From sequence record NC_047884.1: DNA of 64,000 nucleotides. The stretch is one strand, 5' to 3'. This document shows positions 29,818 to 43,777 of the stretch, piece after piece. The DNA is from Escherichia phage saus132. The position numbers and the translations under genes are program-made. The notes under the pieces are model-generated. The model was given only the letters and a program-made list of their open reading frames with translations, had not been told where the DNA came from and did no database searches. Every line of letters begins with the position of its first letter. The stretch's first letter is position 1.

Positions 29818-30031
29818 CTTCGGATTCTAGTTGCTCGGCTACTGCTAGCCAGTCTGGTAAAAGAAACTTAGTACGAAACTCTTCATAAGGTTCTTCTGGA
29901 TAAAAGCTAAAATTTGCTTTCTCATCATTCAAGATAACAGAGCCGTCAGTTTGTTCGTATGCTAGGTATGTTTCTCCAATAACAATAACTCGTTTATTGT
30001 TACTTTTATCACGAAACTCAAAAACGTGCAT
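29810..30031 (-). CDS. hypothetical protein
   Basis: 73-aa ORF. Confidence 0.45.
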   Translation of the reverse strand: MHVFEFRDKSNNKRVIVIGETYLAYEQTDGSVILNDEKANFSFYPEEPYEEFRTKFLLPDWLAVAEQLESEDG

Positions 30032-30048
30032 AAATGTTTCCTTAAAGT

Positions 30049-30124
30049 TGGAGCGGCTAGAGGGAATCGAACCCTACTCAGCGGGGCTTGGAAGGCCTGC
30101 GGCACAACCCGTGTGCTTAACCGC
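30049..30124 (-). tRNA. tRNA-like gene, isotype uncertain (possibly Gly UCC); weak anticodon stem
   Basis: 76 nt; good acceptor and T-arm (TTCGATT) with CCA; only a 3-bp anticodon stem around loop CTTCCAA. Confidence 0.35.
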
Positions 30125-30132
30125 TTATTGTT

Positions 30133-30210
30133 TGGCAGGGGATATTGGATTTGAACCAATGATCTCGACTTCAAAGGCCGAAGCTTTAGGCCAAGCTAAG
30201 CTAATCCCCA
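30133..30210 (-). tRNA. tRNA-Gln (anticodon UUG)
   Basis: T-arm ATTGG-TTCAAAT-CCAAT; anticodon arm TCGGC-CTTTGAA-GTCGA; CCA encoded. Confidence 0.55.
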
Positions 30211-30216
30211 ATTGTT

Positions 30217-30292
30217 TGGCTGGAATGTCTAGGATCGAACTAGAAACCTACGGTGTCAGAAACCGTCGCTCTGCCAGTTGAGCTACACTCCA
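30217..30292 (-). tRNA. tRNA-Gln (anticodon CUG)
   Basis: T-arm TCTAG-TTCGATC-CTAGA; anticodon arm ACGGT-TTCTGAC-ACCGT; D-stem GCTC/GAGC. Confidence 0.6.
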
Positions 30293-30300
30293 ATAATTTT

Positions 30301-30501
30301 TTATTCTACAGGAACCGTGGCGATTGGATCAGGCTCTTCTAGACGTTTACCATTATGATCAACACGGATAATGCCACAACCTTCACAGATTACAACAGCA
30401 CCATAGCCTTCTTTAACTTCGGCTTCTGTAATCAGACCAGAAAGATCACCAGTATCTCTTCCCCACATATCAATAGAGCATTCTTTGCAGAAATCAGCCA
30501 T
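30301..30501 (-). CDS. small Cys-containing protein
   Basis: 66-aa ORF; CKEC...CEGC. Confidence 0.45.
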   Translation of the reverse strand: MADFCKECSIDMWGRDTGDLSGLITEAEVKEGYGAVVICEGCGIIRVDHNGKRLEEPDPIATVPVE

Positions 30502-30525
30502 ATTTTATTTCCTGTTTAAGTTAAT

Positions 30526-30600
30526 TGGTGCATCCTCAGGGAATCGAACCCCGATCGTAAAGTTCGTAGCTTTACATTCTTTCCGTTGAAATAAGGACGC
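30526..30600 (-). tRNA. tRNA-Arg (anticodon ACG)
   Basis: T-loop TTCGATT; anticodon arm TAAAG-CTACGAA-CTTTA; CCA encoded. Confidence 0.55.
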
Positions 30601-30606
30601 AATATT

Positions 30607-30683
30607 TGGGGTGGCTAGTGGAATTCGAATCCACATAGGCCTGATTCACAATCAGGATCATTAACCAATTATGATATAGCCAC
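30607..30683 (-). tRNA. tRNA-His (anticodon GUG)
   Basis: perfect acceptor GTGGCTA/TAGCCAC; T-arm GTGGA-TTCGAAT-TCCAC; anticodon loop TTGTGAA; discriminator C. Confidence 0.65.
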
Positions 30684-31063
30684 AATTGAATACTATTAGG
30701 GGATGATCAGTCCTCCATTTGGCCGTCTAAGGTACCAAAGTTAGTCATTCTGCGCACAGGTTTTTCTCCTGATTCTTTCTTGCGAATGCTCTCTAGTAAT
30801 ACTCAATTGTGGCGGCTCTCCGAAACTCTTCTACTCTAGCCTTAGCAGCTTACTCCCGAACGCATGTCGGGAAAGTCTTACTAAGAACATCAAATAGCAC
30901 CGTTACACTTTGAGCCATTGAATATCAAGAAGCAGAAGGACTTGAACCTTCATGAGATAGACCATTTATCTCAGCCTCGTTTTCGGGTATCTTATGAGGA
31001 GTGGATGTTCCCCTTACGCCCTTTAGGAAGCCCCGTCTACCGATTCCGGCATACTTCAAGATT

Positions 31064-31153
31064 TGGCAGAAGATAATGGAGTCGAACCATCACCGTATCA
31101 CTACAGCGGGCCGGTTTTCAAGACCGGTTACGTACCACTACGTCCTATCTTCT
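31064..31153 (-). tRNA. tRNA-Ser (anticodon UGA), long variable arm
   Basis: 90 nt; anticodon arm CCGGT-CTTGAAA-ACCGG; about 19-nt variable arm; perfect acceptor. Confidence 0.65.
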
Positions 31154-31380
31154 AGTATTTGTTCTACTTCTTTTCGAAGATCTTCTGGATTATCATGATA
31201 GGTTGTTTGCCATACATAAATAACTCCAGCATCACATGCTTTATCAAATATTTCTCGCTCAGGAAGTTTCATGCCCATTGCGTACTTGATATGAAACTCT
31301 AAAGCTTGCTTACTAGGGAATGTATGACGCAAGAAAAACTTATCATTAGCTAAATCCAACATCATAATCTTGACTTTCAT
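31138..31380 (-). CDS. hypothetical protein
   Basis: 80-aa ORF; 3' end overlaps tRNA-Ser 5' end. Confidence 0.45.
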   Translation of the reverse strand: MKVKIMMLDLANDKFFLRHTFPSKQALEFHIKYAMGMKLPEREIFDKACDAGVIYVWQTTYHDNPEDLRKEVEQILEDRT

Positions 31381-31401
31381 TTATATTCCCTATTAGTTGT
31401 T

Positions 31402-31477
31402 TGGTGGAAGAAGAGAGATTCGAACTCTCAAGCCTGCTTTAACAAGTCAGCCACTTTCCAAGCGGTTTTCGTCACCT
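31402..31477 (-). tRNA. tRNA-like remnant (canonical 3' half, 5' half does not pair)
   Basis: CCA, acceptor 3' strand and T-arm GAGAG-TTCGAAT-CTCTC present; Asn-like loop TTGTTAA with weak stem; no complementary 5' acceptor strand. Confidence 0.3.
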
Positions 31478-31653
31478 AATCGATTTGCTCTTCCGTAGAT
31501 CTCAGGATTAAATCATAAACTTCATTAGCGGATACTGGAAGTATGAGATTATACATCTTTTGGTCATACCTCTGACCATACTCTATAAACACATACTCTT
31601 TAGTCAATGTATTAACAGCTAACCAGATATCAGTTATAGGAGTTTTCATCATG
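31476..31653 (-). CDS. hypothetical small protein (59 aa)
   Basis: ATG ORF overlapping the 5' side of the tRNA-like element. Confidence 0.3.
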
Positions 31654-31668
31654 AGTTAATCCAATGTT

Positions 31669-31749
31669 TGGTAGGGATGGAGGGACTCGAACCCACACCC
31701 GAAGACTAGAACCTAAATCTAGCGCGTCTGCCAATTTCGCCACATCCCC
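31669..31749 (-). tRNA. tRNA-Leu (anticodon UAG)
   Basis: anticodon arm CTAGA-TTTAGGT-TCTAG; 9-nt variable region; CCA encoded. Confidence 0.5.
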
Positions 31750-31756
31750 ATTTTAT

Positions 31757-31975
31757 TTAGTTAGAAATAAATAGTAACCCTGCAACAATGGAACCTATGC
31801 CACTGAATACCATTATCAGCATAGCTTCTAAGCTGATAAAGCGGACGTTATATGGAGCGCCCCAAGAATAATCAGTAAAGAAAGTTTTCTTTTCTTTAGC
31901 TAAATCTTTAATAGTTCTAAAATAGATAGCTAGTGCTAAAGCTGCAAGAACTACAGAGGCTGCTAAGAATACCAT
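31757..31975 (-). CDS. small membrane protein
   Basis: 72 aa, two TM segments. Confidence 0.45.
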   Translation of the reverse strand: MVFLAASVVLAALALAIYFRTIKDLAKEKKTFFTDYSWGAPYNVRFISLEAMLIMVFSGIGSIVAGLLFISN

Positions 31976-31994
31976 ATTATTTCCTTAATTTGTT

Positions 31995-32070
31995 TGGTGG
32001 AGTCACTCAGAATTGAACTGAGTTCCACTGCTTGCAAGGCAGTAAGTTTAACCAAATAACCTATGACCCC
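31995..32070 (-). tRNA. tRNA-Ala (anticodon UGC)
   Basis: G3-U70 wobble in acceptor (GGGGTCA/TGACTCC); anticodon arm ACTGC-CTTGCAA-GCAGT; CCA encoded. Confidence 0.65.
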
Positions 32071-32075
32071 GAATT

Positions 32076-32154
32076 TGGTGGAGAATAACGGAATCGAACC
32101 GTTCTGATGTCCTCGGTGCAAGCGAGGTGTCCACTCCATGCAGACCCATTCCCC
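32076..32154 (-). tRNA. tRNA-Ala (anticodon UGC), second divergent copy
   Basis: G3-U70 in acceptor (GGGGAAT/ATTCTCC); anticodon arm CCTCG-CTTGCAC-CGAGG; 7-nt variable loop. Confidence 0.55.
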
Positions 32155-32509
32155 AAAATCTTTAAGTTTACTAAGGCTATTAGCTCGGTGTGCGTATTAC
32201 CCTCAGACATTATCCAGTAGAGGATAACCGCTCTTCACAAACCCGATACACTATTCAGTTGCCGCTGAATCTAGTGGACTAATCTAGAACTTCTCCCGAG
32301 TCGTAGGGATCGTGCTTTTTGGCAGCCAGTCCTAGGTCGAGCTAATACCTTAGTGAACTAAATTGATGGATATCAGACTAATTTTGCTACGGCGTTTATC
32401 CTGAGGATCTCTTTTTCGGTAGCTCTGCTAGTGTAGACGTCATACACCTGATATCTAGGCAGCTATTTTCACATCAATTTATATAAATATTATAACAAGA
32501 AATTAAGCA

Positions 32510-32863
32510 TTAAGCAAGTACATTTTTAGCGATTTCTTGTAGTTCCTTAACGTCGCTAACGAAAAGGTAATCAGAGCTTCCAGAGTGCATACTCTGCATA
32601 ACCACACCACCATCCGGTGCATCTTCTTTCAAAGTAATACCTAACCAGAACTTGGCAAAACTAGGTGTTACCTCACCTTGACTTGCCTTGAACACATCGC
32701 CTTCTGTGATCTCTTGACCAGTGGAGAGTCCCATGTATGGTACGTTCAGATCAATATCTTTGTAGAACTCAGCTAGATCTTGCTCGAAATCCCAACCTTT
32801 AGAGATAGCGAACTCCATTGTTACATGACCGAAATAGCCTTGAACCTTGCTTGATAATTGCAT
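32510..32863 (-). CDS. hypothetical protein
   Basis: start moved to ATG after AAGGA RBS (track start is TTG). Confidence 0.5.
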   Translation of the reverse strand: MQLSSKVQGYFGHVTMEFAISKGWDFEQDLAEFYKDIDLNVPYMGLSTGQEITEGDVFKASQGEVTPSFAKFWLGITLKEDAPDGGVVMQSMHSGSSDYLFVSDVKELQEIAKNVLA

Positions 32864-33859: not shown

Positions 33860-34336
33860 AATATTATCTTTTTAACCATAGTAAGGTTATACCTAACATG
33901 GTAAATCCAGTACCCAGCCCAATACTTTTTTCTATGAAATTGAAGGTATCAGTATTGACTGCGGTAATTAGTATAGGTATAGACCATAGTACCATGAATA
34001 CTTGAGCTATCTTATATTTCACTTTGCTTTCCTTCTTAACATTTTATAAGATATATTATACAGAGAATTAAGCAAAGTAGCAAATGAATTTTTAATAAAT
34101 TTACTTATTGCGTAGGCCACCTGGAGGGTTCAAGCCCCACGGCTGACAAAGAAGTTTGCGAGACTTCTCTTAAACGCCAGAATAGACCCGCCGATCTATC
34201 GGAACCTACTCAATAAGTAAACTTTCATTTACTTACACCTACCTGGTCGGGAGGATTTTCAGCGACTAGAACCGGCCGGAAACTCATCGCCTTGTTTATC
34301 TAGGAGTCCGTTCTCTAGGAAGCAGAAACCTAAATT

Positions 34337-34410: not shown

Positions 34411-34608
34411 ATAATAAGTCAATCTAGGCAGGACTTGAACCTGCTATCACTTGTGCGGATTTACGAGAACCATTCTTTCACTCGAATCGAACGAGCTTCT
34501 ACCCTCGGCAAGCTGGTGTCCCCTCTCCACCACGCTAGAATGTTTGATAAAGAGTCCGGTGTAGCAATCCGTAAGGGTGCACCTACTGTAGCCTTTACTC
34601 TTTAAATT

Positions 34609-34962: not shown

Positions 34963-35065
34963 ATCTATTTCCTCAGTTGTTAATGAAAAATGGTATCTGT
35001 GACTGAATTCGATATCAGCAATGATAGCTGGTTGGCTACCGGTTTACTTAACTCTACACAGAATT

Positions 35066-36430: not shown

Positions 36431-36507
36431 TGGCAAACCTACTAGGACTCGAACCTAGACCGTACGGTTTTGGAGACCGACATGCTGTCCAGTAACACTC
36501 TAGGAAT
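36431..36507 (-). tRNA. tRNA-Trp (anticodon CCA)
   Basis: T-arm CTAGG-TTCGAGT-CCTAG; anticodon arm TCGGT-CTCCAAA-ACCGT; two U-U mismatches in acceptor. Confidence 0.5.
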
Positions 36508-36599: not shown

Positions 36600-36690
36600 T
36601 GGTGTTGGATGATGGAGTCGAACCACCCGAGACCCTTCCGAGTCGGCAGATTTACAGTCTACTTCGCTACCTCTACGATACTAATCCAAC
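36600..36690 (-). tRNA. tRNA-Tyr (anticodon GUA), long variable arm
   Basis: 91 nt; perfect acceptor GTTGGAT/ATCCAAC; anticodon loop CTGTAAA; about 18-nt variable arm. Confidence 0.6.
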
Positions 36691-42881: not shown

Positions 42882-43777
42882 TTTAGGTATTTTTAAGAAC
42901 TCTTATAAAAGCTCTTAAAGATACCCGACGGTAGGTAGGGTCAGCCCCCTCAGATTAAGCTCTGCAGCCCTTCCGTCAGACAATATCTTCCAGTTTAAGT
43001 CAGGGTGACTTTGTGGTTATGTTCTCCGTATGTGAAGAACTCGGTTAGGCTTAGGTCATGACTCCCAGCCTACTGCTGCCGCTCAACAGGAATTATCGCG
43101 AATTACCTGTACTATTGGGCACCATTAGTGACATCTCTCATGTCAGCGTTTCCCACTCTCATATTCACGCGGTCTGTTAGAATCGCACCTCCGATTTTCG
43201 ATGCGAAGCTGGATGCCTAGTCTCAGGTTAAACGGGGCACACACTAGGCAGTGATCCCGAGTTCCGAGTTTGGTTGAGGCCGTCAGGTTTCCTCGTGGTT
43301 TAGCTGTTTCGATTCTAACCTAATACTGATCAGGTGGCGTACCTCCTGAACTGTCATAGTATGTACTCCAGCAGCGAATGCTTATCCGGTATAAGCCCGA
43401 GTTATCTGATTCTTTCCGACCGCAGGATTCGAACCTGCATCTTCCACCAGTTACGGTTTGATATTACCGTTTATACTAGGACGGCAGTGTTATCACATAA
43501 GTCAGTTCGACACCCCACTAACATAAACTAGAGAAGAGTTTACGAGATTTCGGGACAGCTCCCGAGTTTTCCGCAGATTTTCAGTTCCCTATCAATAGCA
43601 ATAAGCGTTAGCTCGTAGCCTCTCTCAGAGTACTTACTAGTCTCCAACTCACCGACTCTATTCAGTGGAATAGCTATCCTAGTAGGAATCACTAAACTCA
43701 CTCAGCGTAATCGGCTCGCTGTTCTCTAATTTATGAATCTATTATACAGAATTTTGAGGCGTTTAGCAAATCAATTT

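What the first reader, a model, noticed from the sequence alone, without database searches (positions are those of the whole stretch)
30133..32154. Tandem isoacceptor pairs: two tRNA-Ala(UGC) and Gln(UUG)/Gln(CUG)
Adjacent genes at 31995-32070 and 32076-32154 both read UGC and both keep the G3-U70 alanine identity pair while differing elsewhere. 30133-30210 and 30217-30292 are adjacent Gln genes with different anticodons. Divergent duplicate copies may be decoys or variants with different nuclease sensitivity.
Basis: seen in the sequence. Interest (0 to 1): 0.4.

Follow-up and report, generated by a model that had tools for sequence, protein, structure and literature searches.

The report
Phage tRNA pairs; one odd alanine tRNA
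The four genes are real, already annotated tRNAs in the tRNA cluster of a T5-like phage; the glutamine pair is ordinary, but one of the two alanine tRNAs belongs to a conserved, apparently phage-restricted family with an unusual core that standard tRNA models score as a non-tRNA.

Summary
The window is the left 64 kb of T5-like phage chee130_1 (MF431736), and all four tRNAs sit at the stated coordinates on the minus strand.

The "divergent duplicates" reading does not hold. Ala-1 and Ala-2 are 60% identical and the two Gln genes 62%, the same as unrelated tRNAs.

The Gln(CUG)/Gln(UUG) pair is a normal complementary isoacceptor pair. It is positionally conserved in T5-like phages.

The Ala pair joins two independent lineages:
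- **Ala-1** is canonical (Rfam tRNA model 59.6 bits). It is present or absent among very close relatives.
- **Ala-2** fails the general tRNA model but belongs to a strongly covarying family: 65 distinct sequences, 99.7% of cells paired, 14 of 23 pairs compensated. The family has G8-G9, a predicted 6-bp D stem with a 5-nt D loop, a 6-8-nt variable loop ending CAG, and an invariant G3·U70.

The family occurs in phage tRNA arrays from many hosts and is usually the array's only Ala tRNA. A close homologue is annotated as a working amber suppressor.

Both Ala genes are therefore most likely functional alanine tRNAs. Differential nuclease sensitivity is plausible but untested, and a decoy role is unsupported.

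The parts
32076..32154 (-). Ala-2: tRNA-Ala(UGC), 79 nt with encoded CCA. It has a non-canonical core. Features: G3 (32152) paired with U70 (32082); A73; G8-G9 at 32147-32146; predicted 6-bp D stem (32145-32140 with 32134-32129) and 5-nt D loop; anticodon at 32120-32118; 7-nt variable loop ACAUCAG.
   Evidence: Found by ARAGORN. No RF00005 listing; best clan match is tRNA-Sec at 23.6 bits. The family model R1 scores it 97.6 bits. Family covariation is strong. The minimum-energy fold is the same cloverleaf with a 6-bp D stem.
31995..32070 (-). Ala-1: canonical tRNA-Ala(UGC), 76 nt with encoded CCA. Features: G3 (32068) paired with U70 (32001); A73; U8; 4-bp D stem; anticodon at 32036-32034.
   Evidence: Found by ARAGORN. 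RF00005 score 59.6 bits. 305 phage records hold a relative; 151 of them are at least 99% identical, and FelixO1-like phages are about 82% identical with compensated stems.
30217..30292 (-). tRNA-Gln(CUG), 76 nt. Features: U1-A72, G2-C71, G3-C70, G73, G10; anticodon at 30259-30257.
   Evidence: Found by ARAGORN. RF00005 score 60.0 bits. Compared with Q2 of Salmonella phage 5, stem changes are largely compensated.
30133..30210 (-). tRNA-Gln(UUG), 78 nt. Features: U1·U72 mismatch, G2-C71, G3-C70, G73; anticodon at 30174-30172.
   Evidence: Found by ARAGORN. RF00005 score 54.5 bits. It is 100% identical to T5 tRNA-Q1, which the T5 record annotates as an effective amber suppressor after an anticodon swap.
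30049..30124 (-). tRNA-Gly(UCC), 8 nt downstream of Gln(UUG) in the same tight cluster. ARAGORN does not call it.
   Evidence: Annotated in MF431736. 97% identical to T5 tRNA-G1, which the T5 record annotates as an effective suppressor after an anticodon swap. Rfam gives only tRNA-Sec at 28.5 bits.
32235..32347 (-). Homologue of the 5' 113 nt of T5 'RNA2H', a stable RNA of unknown function. It lies just upstream of Ala-2 in the same transcription direction.
   Evidence: blastn against the T5 feature gives 96.5% identity. The feature is annotated in the T5 and phage 5 records. It is not annotated in MF431736.
32472..32539 (-). Conserved counterpart of T5 early promoter P13b (TTGCTT ... TATAAT). 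It is the likely start of the transcript that carries RNA2H, Ala-2, Ala-1 and the downstream tRNAs.
   Evidence: A 46-nt stretch is 100% identical to T5 P13b, and a 68-nt stretch is 98.5% identical to the 'P13b-like' feature of phage S114. The generic promoter scan found nothing above chance. Operon membership is inferred.
31669..31749 (-). tRNA-Leu(UAG). In many relatives it directly follows the Ala-2-type gene. Here it is separated from Ala-2 by Ala-1 and a 72-codon ORF (31757-31975).
   Evidence: for the genes. Relatives with an identical Ala-2 allele followed directly by Leu are shown. Phage 5 has the same Ala-2-type then Leu layout.

Best explanation
All four genes are functional translation tRNAs. 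They belong to the roughly 30-gene early tRNA array of a T5-like phage (Epseptimavirus). They are probably transcribed from the conserved P13b-type promoter as multi-tRNA precursors and cut out by host RNase P and 3' processing enzymes.

**Gln pair.** Gln(CUG) and Gln(UUG) are complementary isoacceptors for CAG and CAA.

**Ala pair.** The two Ala(UGC) genes are not a duplication. They are two independent lineages placed side by side by the cassette-like gene turnover typical of this region.
- Ala-2 is the long-standing occupant of the slot. It belongs to an apparently phage-restricted tRNA-Ala family with a remodelled core: G8-G9 instead of U8, a D stem extended to 6 bp that uses up positions 14, 15 and 21, a 5-nt D loop that keeps G18-G19, and a 6-8-nt variable loop ending CAG.
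- Ala-1 is a canonical tRNA-Ala that is gained or lost between close relatives.

**How they work.** Both keep G3·U70 and A73, so host AlaRS should charge both. AlaRS reads the acceptor stem and not the core or anticodon. Both would then read GCA, GCU and GCG, which are 88% of the phage's alanine codons.

**What is shown and what is inferred.**
- Shown: the genes exist, they are not related as duplicates, the family structure is conserved, and the distribution is as described.
- From database annotation: suppressor activity of an Ala-2-type homologue and of the identical Gln(UUG).
- Inferred: charging, expression and co-transcription in this phage.
- Also inferred: the benefit of two Ala genes is extra supply plus robustness against loss of one species.
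For: **Genes and identity elements.**
- The window is identical to the annotated record MF431736.

**Not duplicates.**
- Identity within each pair is 60-62%, the same as between different tRNA species.

**Ala-2 family structure.**
- The alignment holds 65 distinct sequences. 99.7% of pair cells are standard pairs.
- 14 of 23 pairs show changes on both sides.
- The covariation score is 0.489, against 0.076 or less when partners are slid.
- RNAalifold and RNAfold independently give the same cloverleaf with a 6-bp D stem.

**Alanine identity tracks the anticodon.**
- In scans that left the 3' end unconstrained, every UGC member parsed has G3·U70 and A73.
- Members with a GUC anticodon instead have G73 and lack G3·U70.

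**Used as the working tRNA-Ala.**
- 105 of 118 loci hold a scaffold-type Ala(UGC) inside dense tRNA arrays (median 14 tRNAs per locus).
- Only 10 of those also hold a canonical Ala gene in the fetched stretch.
- Phage 5's Ala-2-type gene is annotated 'replacement of the anticodon with CUA converts this tRNA into amber suppressor'.

**Purifying selection in the tandem state.**
- L035 carries an identical Ala-1 next to an Ala-2 that differs from the window's only in loops and in compensated T-stem pairs.

**Ala-1 and the Gln genes.**
- Ala-1 versus the FelixO1-like gene shows compensated D, anticodon and T stems.
- Gln(UUG) is identical to T5 Q1, annotated as an effective suppressor.

**Codon usage.**
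- Ala codons: GCA 36.5%, GCU 41.0%, GCG 10.4%, GCC 12.1%.
- Gln codons: CAA 50.3%, CAG 49.7%.

**Turnover at the locus.**
- T5's Ala, Q2, Ser2 and Leu1 have no blastn match in the window, while Q1 and G1 do.
- Four Ala(UGC) types occupy this slot in T5-like phages.
- An identical Ala-2 allele occurs with or without Ala-1.

**Promoter.** The T5 P13b promoter is conserved upstream.
Against: - There are no expression, processing or aminoacylation data for this phage.
- The suppressor evidence consists of depositors' notes on homologues. I could not read a paper behind them.
- Ala-2 lacks U8 and A14 and fails the general tRNA model. Reduced or altered performance on EF-Tu or the ribosome cannot be excluded.
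- D-stem pairs 13·22, 14·21 and 15-20a never vary. The 6-bp stem therefore rests on thermodynamic prediction and invariance, not on covariation.
- Both IMG/VR search patterns fixed part of the sequence, so the sampled diversity is biased. U70 was forced in the second scan.
- Two Ala genes with the same anticodon are not needed for decoding. Supply alone does not explain why two such different structures are kept.
Confidence: 0.72

Rival explanations
1. Anti-defence hedging. The two Ala(UGC) tRNAs are kept because they differ in sensitivity to host tRNA-targeting nucleases. The remodelled core, D arm, variable loop and anticodon stem of Ala-2 would escape a nuclease, or a modification-dependent recognition step, that hits host or canonical tRNA-Ala. 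The reverse could also hold. Either way, at least one charged tRNA-Ala survives in any host. This adds a selective reason to the best explanation and does not exclude it.
For: - The structural differences are large: G8-G9, a 6-bp D stem, a 7-nt variable loop and a different anticodon stem.
- Four unrelated Ala(UGC) lineages rotate through one locus in T5-like phages. That pattern fits diversifying pressure.
- A bacterial Schlafen nuclease activated by a T5 protein is reported to cleave T5-encoded tRNA-Ala(UGC) among its best substrates (PMC13056530).
- T5 tRNA-Lys, Thr and Asn variants resist the PARIS nuclease AriB (PMC12409363).
- The scaffold is essentially absent from cellular genomes: 12 true hits in 185,579 species genomes, 10 of them in dense tRNA arrays. 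There are none in 5,426 E. coli genomes.
Against: - No cleavage or rescue data exist for Ala-1 or Ala-2.
- The nuclease result concerns T5's own Ala type, which is 57% and 65% identical to Ala-1 and Ala-2.
- Nucleases with mapped cut sites in the papers read here act on the anticodon arm, plus the variable loop in one case. I found none recognising the D-arm core.
- Most phages that carry the scaffold have it as their only Ala gene, so pairing is not a general feature of the family.
- Ala-1 is present or absent among near-identical relatives. That also fits neutral gain and loss.
Confidence: 0.3
2. Neutral or dosage-only redundancy. Ala-1 is a recent passenger, brought in by recombination or homing-endonuclease-driven exchange in the tRNA region. 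It adds at most some extra tRNA-Ala(UGC), and the structural difference from Ala-2 has no functional meaning.
For: - Ala-1 is nearly invariant in T5-like phages (151 records at 99% or more), as expected for a recent spread.
- An identical Ala-2 allele occurs with Ala-1 in the window. It occurs without it in L015, L026, L039, L045 and L046.
- Only 134 records carry the adjacent pair, against 431 with an Ala-2-type gene.
- HNH endonuclease genes lie in the T5 and phage 5 tRNA regions.
- Alanine makes up 7.4% of codons, and 88% of them are readable by UGC.
Against: - S114 keeps a two-gene Ala(UGC) state but with a different upstream partner. That hints at selection for two genes, not chance.
- Same-amino-acid neighbours are somewhat more frequent than chance (p = 0.034).
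- Ala-1 relatives in FelixO1-like phages show compensated stems, so the gene is maintained.
Confidence: 0.3
3. Ala-2 is a decoy or other non-translational tRNA-like RNA. It would soak up a nuclease or bind a phage or host protein and would not decode alanine codons.
For: - It fails the general tRNA model.
- tRNAscan-based annotation of a Yersinia jumbo phage calls its homologue 'tRNA-Pseudo-TGC'.
- The same region holds several tRNA-like 'stable RNAs of unknown function'.
Against: - The anticodon UGC, the 7-nt anticodon loop with U33, G3·U70, A73, G18-G19 and the T-loop consensus are conserved almost throughout the family. One member has C33.
- Alanine identity elements switch to aspartate ones exactly when the anticodon is GUC.
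- It is usually the only Ala tRNA in otherwise near-complete phage tRNA sets.
- A close homologue is annotated as an amber suppressor.
Confidence: 0.05
4. Ala-2 is a decaying pseudogene copy of a tRNA-Ala.
For: It has a low generic covariance score, and one record labels the homologue a pseudogene.
Against: - 99.7% of stem cells are paired across 65 distinct sequences, and 14 pairs are compensated.
- The family is conserved in phages of widely different hosts.
Confidence: 0.02

Closest known systems
tRNA gene region of bacteriophage T5, BF23 and Salmonella phage 5 (records NC_005859 and AJ604531)
   Same: - Same genome region, strand and neighbours, and the same P13b promoter.
- The RNA2H-Ala-Leu and Q2-Q1-G1 orders are shared.
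- Gln(UUG) is 100% identical and Gly(UCC) 97% identical to the T5 genes.
- Phage 5's tRNA-Ala is of the Ala-2 type.
   Different: - T5 has a single Ala(UGC) of a third, unrelated type, and its Q2 is flagged as a pseudogene.
- Phage 5 has Ala-2 alone, followed directly by Leu.
- The window adds the canonical Ala-1 and a small ORF between Ala-2 and Leu.
Nuclease-resistant phage tRNAs, such as T5 tRNA-Lys(UUU), Thr and Asn against PARIS AriB, and phage tRNA-Tyr against retron Eco7
   Same: They are phage-encoded copies of a host tRNA species that differ in sequence from the host tRNA and come from the same T5 tRNA array (PMC12409363 and PMC11555353).
   Different: In those cases resistance maps to a few substitutions around the cut site in the anticodon arm, and rescue was shown by experiment. 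For Ala-1 and Ala-2 no nuclease, cut site or rescue is known. The one published datum on a T5-like tRNA-Ala is that it is cleaved, not resistant (PMC13056530).
tRNA-Sec D arm (6-bp D stem, 4-nt D loop)
   Same: Ala-2 is predicted to have a 6-bp D stem that absorbs positions 14, 15 and 21, so the usual 8-14 and 15-48 tertiary pairs cannot form. The best Rfam clan match is the tRNA-Sec model. The description of the tRNA-Sec D arm is from PMC7609411.
   Different: Ala-2 has a 7/5 acceptor/T arrangement, not 8/5. It also has a 5-nt D loop with G18-G19, a 7-nt variable loop instead of a long arm, anticodon UGC, A73 and G3·U70. The tRNA-Sec score of 23.6 bits is far below the gathering score of 47.
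Tandem Gln isoacceptor genes in E. coli (glnU/W and glnV/X in the metT operon; from my own knowledge)
   Same: UUG and CUG glutamine tRNA genes lie next to each other in one transcript.
   Different: The host copies are about 91% identical to each other, by my remembered sequences as used. The phage pair is 62% identical, and its two genes are exchanged independently between related phages.

Membership tests
Canonical bacterial-type tRNA (Rfam RF00005) | Score at or above the gathering score of 29 bits on the general tRNA covariance model | tested here: met
   Ala-1 scores 59.6 bits, Gln(CUG) 60.0 and Gln(UUG) 54.5.
Canonical bacterial-type tRNA (Rfam RF00005) | The same score criterion, applied to Ala-2 | tested here: not met
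   There is no RF00005 listing at 32076-32154. The best clan match is tRNA-Sec at 23.6 bits, E = 0.86. A homologue is annotated 'tRNA-Pseudo-TGC'.
Canonical bacterial-type tRNA (Rfam RF00005) | Core nucleotides U8 and A14, a 3-4-bp D stem and a 4-5-nt variable loop (class I) | tested here: not met
   Ala-2 has G8, G9 and G14, a predicted 6-bp D stem and a 7-nt variable loop. G8, G9 and G14 are invariant in the 65 family sequences. Ala-1 and both Gln tRNAs have U8 and 4-bp D stems.
tRNA-Ala (substrate of alanyl-tRNA synthetase) | G3·U70 wobble pair in the acceptor stem, plus discriminator A73 | tested here: met
   Both genes have them. G3·U70 is present in 65 of 65 family sequences. This includes every Ala-type sequence from scans that did not constrain the 3' end.
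tRNA-Ala (substrate of alanyl-tRNA synthetase) | Actual aminoacylation with alanine | not testable with these tools
   The only evidence is indirect. Phage 5's Ala-2-type gene is annotated as an amber suppressor after an anticodon swap. The inserted amino acid is not stated.
tRNA-Gln (substrate of glutaminyl-tRNA synthetase) | Weak or absent 1-72 pair, G2-C71, G3-C70, G73, G10, U35, G36 and A37 (the identity set is from my own knowledge of E. coli tRNA-Gln) | tested here: met
   Read from the sequences. Gln(UUG) has U1·U72, G2-C71, G3-C70, G73 and G10. Gln(CUG) has U1-A72, G2-C71, G3-C70, G73 and G10. Position 38 is A or C, not the host's U.
tRNA-Sec | 13-bp acceptor/T domain (8/5 in bacteria), UCA anticodon, long variable arm and G73 | tested here: not met
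   Ala-2 has a 7/5 arrangement, anticodon UGC, a 7-nt variable loop and A73. Only the long D stem resembles tRNA-Sec.
tRNA pseudogene | Loss of stem complementarity and no conservation beyond close relatives | tested here: not met
   99.7% of cells are paired and 14 of 23 pairs are compensated. Homologues are found in 431 phage records, in 52 and 82 IMG/VR stretches and in MAG contigs binned to distant taxa.
Anti-defence phage tRNA (nuclease-resistant variant) | Shown resistance to a defined host tRNase, and rescue of infection | not testable with these tools
   No data exist for Ala-1, Ala-2 or the Gln pair. The literature covers T5 Lys, Thr, Asn and Tyr, and reports cleavage of T5's own Ala type.
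Recent tandem gene duplicates | Members of a pair more similar to each other than to other tRNA species | tested here: not met
   Ala-1 and Ala-2 are 60% identical and the Gln pair 62%. Comparisons between Ala and Gln genes give 56-61%.

The most novel reading that the evidence does not exclude
Ala-2 would represent a phage-restricted, structurally non-canonical tRNA scaffold. Its features are G8-G9, a 6-bp D stem that abolishes the 8-14 and 15-48 tertiary pairs, and an enlarged variable loop ending CAG. Phages of many bacterial phyla use the scaffold for tRNA-Ala(UGC) and, in some large phages, tRNA-Asp(GUC).

The scaffold would persist because it makes these tRNAs invisible to host factors that read the canonical tRNA core, such as defence tRNases, core modification enzymes or quality-control decay. 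AlaRS would still charge it because it reads only the acceptor stem.

On this reading the canonical/non-canonical tandem in this phage is a bet-hedging pair.
Probability: 0.2. Interest if true: 0.7.

Novelty: new variant of a known kind. Interest (0 to 1): 0.4.

Why it matters
As stated, the finding is ordinary. Tandem tRNA genes in T5-like phages have been sequenced, annotated and partly tested as suppressors.

The new point is that one of the two alanine genes is not a degenerate copy. It belongs to a widespread family that looks specific to phages and has a remodelled tRNA core. Standard tools score this family as a non-tRNA or pseudogene, so it is probably under-counted in phage tRNA surveys.

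If the altered core changes recognition by host nucleases or modification enzymes, two things would follow. It would extend the current picture of phage tRNA immune evasion from point changes in the anticodon arm to a change of architecture. It would also supply a natural AlaRS-compatible scaffold of interest for orthogonal-translation engineering.

The rapid rotation of four unrelated Ala(UGC) genes through one locus also marks tRNA-Ala as a possible battleground. One published defence nuclease cuts T5's tRNA-Ala.

Tried and rejected
- **Pseudogene reading of Ala-2:** rejected on covariation.
- **Recent duplication:** rejected on pairwise identities.
- **tRNA-Sec membership:** rejected. Only the long D stem matches, and the score is far below threshold.
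- **Generic promoter and terminator scan of 29900-32700:** nothing above chance. The promoter was located by homology to T5 P13b instead.
- **Ala-2-like sequence in 5,426 complete E. coli genomes:** none found. This is a weak test, because the query is 79 nt and the database holds 28 Gb.
- **Literature searches for a description of a long-D-stem or G8 phage tRNA-Ala:** none found. Much of the older T5 tRNA literature is not in the searchable library, so prior description cannot be excluded.
- **DARNA and OLD tRNase preprints:** no mention of Ala or Gln targets.
- **Covariation proof for the inner three D-stem pairs (13·22, 14·21, 15-20a):** not possible, because they are invariant in all 65 sequences. 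A few divergent members (L069, L075, L106) suggest alternatives but were not resolved.
- **Scan of bacterial and archaeal genomes:** the pattern required A6 and U7, so cellular variants with other acceptor stems would be missed.
- **First attempts that failed on syntax:**


Full report
**1. What the window is**

The 4-kb stretch around the finding is 100% identical, at the same coordinates, to Bacteriophage T5-like chee130_1 (MF431736.1; Demerecviridae, Epseptimavirus). The finding lies in the phage's tRNA gene region. ARAGORN tRNAs between 29041 and 42881, all on the minus strand. The record annotates 30, adding Gly(UCC) at 30049-30124 and a Ser gene at 31402-31494.

**2. Check of the observation**

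- Gln(UUG) at 30133-30210
- Gln(CUG) at 30217-30292
- Ala(UGC) at 31995-32070, here called Ala-1
- Ala(UGC) at 32076-32154, here called Ala-2

Both Ala genes have G3·U70, A73 and an encoded CCA. The spacers are 5 and 6 nt.

Tight spacing is the rule in this array: 11 junctions are 10 nt or less. Two of the 11 join tRNAs for the same amino acid, which is modestly more than chance (permutation p = 0.034).

Against Rfam, Ala-1 (59.6 bits), Gln(CUG) (60.0) and Gln(UUG) (54.5) are clear tRNAs. Ala-2 gets no tRNA-model listing. Its best match within the clan is tRNA-Sec at 23.6 bits, E = 0.86, far below that family's threshold.

**3. They are not duplicates**

Ala-1 and Ala-2 are 60% identical and the two Gln genes 62%. 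Comparisons between Ala and Gln genes give 56-61%. Each gene has its own relatives elsewhere.

- Gln(UUG) is 100% identical to T5 tRNA-Q1.
- T5's Q2(CUG) is only 60% identical to the window's Gln(CUG) and is flagged as a pseudogene.
- Phage 5's Q2 resembles the window's Gln(CUG), with largely compensated stem changes, but its Q1 is different.
- T5 has a single Ala(UGC) of a third type, 57% and 65% identical to Ala-1 and Ala-2.
- Salmonella phage S114 has a fourth Ala(UGC) type upstream of an Ala-1 gene.
- By blastn, T5's Ala, Q2, Ser2 and Leu1 have no counterpart in the window, while Q1 and G1 do.

The region is therefore a mosaic in which individual tRNA genes are replaced.

**4. The Gln pair**

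A CUG gene followed by a UUG gene is a positional constant of T5-like tRNA regions, often annotated 'tRNA-Gln (x2)'. The exact combination seen here occurs in only 48 phage records.

Both genes keep the acceptor and D-stem elements that I know as the E. coli GlnRS identity set. The phage uses CAA and CAG equally: 50.3% and 49.7% in 34 ORFs of 150 codons or more. The T5 record notes that Q1 becomes an effective amber suppressor when given a new anticodon.

This is an ordinary complementary isoacceptor pair.

**5. Ala-1**

Ala-1 is a canonical cloverleaf. Relatives occur in 305 phage records. About 170 are at 95% identity or more (T5-like phages). About 135 are near 82%, and those listed are mostly FelixO1-like phages. 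Against the FelixO1-like gene of phage LMP25, the D, anticodon and T stems differ by compensated changes and the acceptor stem is identical. The gene is therefore maintained as a tRNA.

**6. Ala-2**

The sequence folds as follows:
- a 7-bp acceptor stem
- G8-G9
- D stem GUCUGC/GUGGAC (6 bp, including U13·G22 and G14·U21) with D loop AUGGA
- anticodon stem CCUCG/CGAGG with loop CUUGCAC
- 7-nt variable loop ACAUCAG
- T arm AACGG-UUCGAUU-CCGUU

*Distribution.* Homologues occur in 431 phage records. They include:
- Demerecviridae, among them Klebsiella Sugarlandvirus, where the gene stands alone before Leu
- Vequintavirinae (Cronobacter phage EspYZU14)
- a 354-kb Yersinia phage, where it is annotated 'tRNA-Pseudo-TGC'

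Two pattern scans of IMG/VR returned 52 and 82 stretches from contigs of 5.8-479 kb.

*Covariation.* I aligned 65 distinct family sequences.
- 99.7% of stem cells form standard pairs.
- 14 of 23 pairs show changes on both sides.
- The covariation score is 0.489, against 0.076 or less with slid partners.
- RNAalifold predicts the same structure independently.
- D-stem pairs 10-25, 11-24 and 12-23 covary.
- Pairs 13·22, 14·21 and 15-20a, and also G8 and G9, are invariant. The variable-loop CAG is invariant at C and A and nearly so at G.
- The extended D stem is therefore predicted but not proven by covariation.

*Alanine identity.* G3·U70 is present in 65 of 65 sequences. In the scans that did not constrain the 3' end, every UGC member parsed has G3·U70 and A73.

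*Same scaffold with another anticodon.* Some large-phage contigs carry the same D-arm scaffold with a GUC anticodon. Those genes have G73 and lack G3·U70, which makes them tRNA-Asp. Identity elements that follow the anticodon argue that these RNAs are aminoacylated.

*The window.* A covariance model built from the family scores Ala-2 at 97.6 bits. The next best hit in the window is Ala-1 at 41.7 bits.

**7. The family is probably phage-specific and is used as the working tRNA-Ala**

A scan with a pattern covering the 5' half of the tRNA, run over one genome for each of 185,579 bacterial and archaeal species, gave 16 hits.
- Four are chance matches with no tRNA nearby.
- Ten lie in dense arrays of 7-23 tRNAs per 8 kb or less, on MAG contigs binned to very different taxa. 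I read these as phage DNA, but did not check.
- Two lie in Myxococcota with few neighbouring tRNAs.

None was found in 5,426 E. coli genomes.

In 118 fetched loci, 105 carry a scaffold-type Ala(UGC), with a median of 14 tRNAs per locus. Only 10 also hold a canonical Ala gene in the fetched stretch.

The GenBank record for the tRNA region of Salmonella phage 5 annotates its Ala-2-type gene (88.6% identical) as follows: 'replacement of the anticodon with CUA sequence converts this tRNA into amber suppressor'. This is a depositor's note, not a paper I could read. It still fits everything above.

**8. The pair as a state**

The adjacent Ala-2/Ala-1 pair occurs in 134 phage records. An Ala-2 allele identical to the window's is followed directly by tRNA-Leu in several IMG/VR genomes (L015, L026, L039, L045, L046). 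Ala-1 is therefore gained or lost between very close relatives.

In L035 an identical Ala-1 sits next to an Ala-2 that differs from the window's only in loops and in compensated T-stem pairs. Ala-2 is thus under purifying selection in the tandem state as well.

S114 keeps two Ala(UGC) genes but with a different upstream partner.

**9. Context and expression (inferred)**

T5's early promoter P13b is conserved at 32472-32539 on the minus strand. Downstream in order come:
- a homologue of T5 'RNA2H', a stable RNA of unknown function (32235-32347)
- Ala-2
- Ala-1
- a 72-codon ORF
- Leu(UAG)

I found no expression data for this phage.

**10. Mechanism**

AlaRS recognises the acceptor stem through G3·U70. 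This is established knowledge and is restated in PMC7609411. A tRNA with a remodelled core can therefore still be charged.

A UGC anticodon can read GCA, GCU and GCG if U34 is modified as in the host (my own knowledge). These three codons make up 88% of the phage's Ala codons.

The most likely account is that both Ala genes and both Gln genes are working tRNAs that supply the phage's A/U-rich codon usage. Why two structurally different Ala tRNAs coexist is not settled.

- *Hedging against tRNA-targeting defences* is plausible. A bacterial Schlafen nuclease triggered by a T5 protein cleaves T5's own tRNA-Ala(UGC) efficiently (PMC13056530). T5 tRNA variants resist PARIS (PMC12409363). Four Ala lineages rotate through this locus. 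No result bears on Ala-1 or Ala-2 themselves.
- *Neutral gain and loss, or simple dosage,* fits the patchy presence of Ala-1 equally well.
- *A decoy role* has no support.

**11. Novelty**

The genes, their annotation and the tandem arrangement are already public. I did not find a description of the Ala-2 type as a distinct, conserved, phage-restricted structural class shared with tRNA-Asp. The older T5 literature is largely outside the searchable library, so prior description cannot be ruled out.

I rate it a new variant of a known kind and of moderate interest.

Noticed in passing
window 30810-30916, 30917-31060, 32235-32347, 34109-34209, 34418-34542, 34991-35063, 42882-43540 (all minus strand): These are homologues of T5 'stable RNAs with unknown functions': RNAI, RNA1, RNA2H, RNAIV, RNA2, RNA3 and RNAX, at 80-97% identity. 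The T5 and phage 5 records annotate them. MF431736 does not, and these stretches appear there as gene-free gaps. RNA1, RNA2 and RNA3 are described as tRNA-like.
   Followed up: partly
window 30049-30124 and 31402-31494 (minus strand): tRNA-Gly(UCC) and a tRNA-Ser are annotated in the record but not called by ARAGORN. In Rfam they appear only as weak tRNA-Sec matches (28.5 and 23.8 bits). The Gly gene is 97% identical to T5 G1, which is annotated as an effective suppressor. Ala-2 is therefore not the only atypical but probably functional tRNA in this array.
   Followed up: partly
window 43414-43485 (minus strand): A borderline RF00005 tRNA match (29.3 bits; the gathering score is 29). It lies inside the stretch homologous to T5 RNAX and is not annotated as a tRNA.
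   Followed up: no
L012 145-220, L051 1589-1665, L071 13086-13160, L038 1986-2062, L022 3745-3819, L092 3854-3929, L009 3949-4022, L041 1366-1455, L044 1061-1153: In other phage contigs the Ala-2 D-arm scaffold (mostly GG-NNCUGC-NNGGN-GUGGNN, with slight variants) also carries a GUC anticodon. Those genes have G73 and lack G3·U70, which makes them tRNA-Asp. Two of them have a long insertion in the variable region. No other amino acid was seen on this scaffold.
   Followed up: partly
L069 241-313 and L106 5885-5957: Two tRNA-Ala(UGC) genes have the family's acceptor stem, G8-G9 and a variable loop ending CAG. Their D arm is different: a G/C-rich stem with a 2-3-nt loop and no G18-G19. The usual D-loop/T-loop contact would therefore be missing.
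   Followed up: no
L114 5473-5548 (Paraliomyxa miuraensis isolate genome, 713-kb contig) and L124 (Myxococcota MAG): These family members are not in a dense tRNA array; only Gly and Gly/Trp tRNAs lie nearby. They could sit in a prophage or be a cellular copy. They are the only hint that the scaffold exists outside phages.
   Followed up: no
window 30159-30281 (plus strand): The annotated 40-codon CDS P1301_0054 lies antisense across the two Gln tRNA genes. It is probably a spurious gene call.
   Followed up: no
L130 552-622 (Salmonella phage S114) and L005 4715-4789 (T5): Counting these two, at least four unrelated tRNA-Ala(UGC) gene types occupy the same slot, between RNA2H and tRNA-Leu, in different T5-like phages. 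All keep G3·U70.
   Followed up: partly
window 36600-36690 and 36431-36507 (minus strand): tRNA-Tyr(GUA) and tRNA-Trp(CCA) score only 29.4 and 36.3 bits on the general tRNA model, the lowest among the tRNAs that ARAGORN calls. T5's tRNA-Tyr is reported to complement a phage tRNA-Tyr in a retron/PrrC evasion study (PMC11555353).
   Followed up: no
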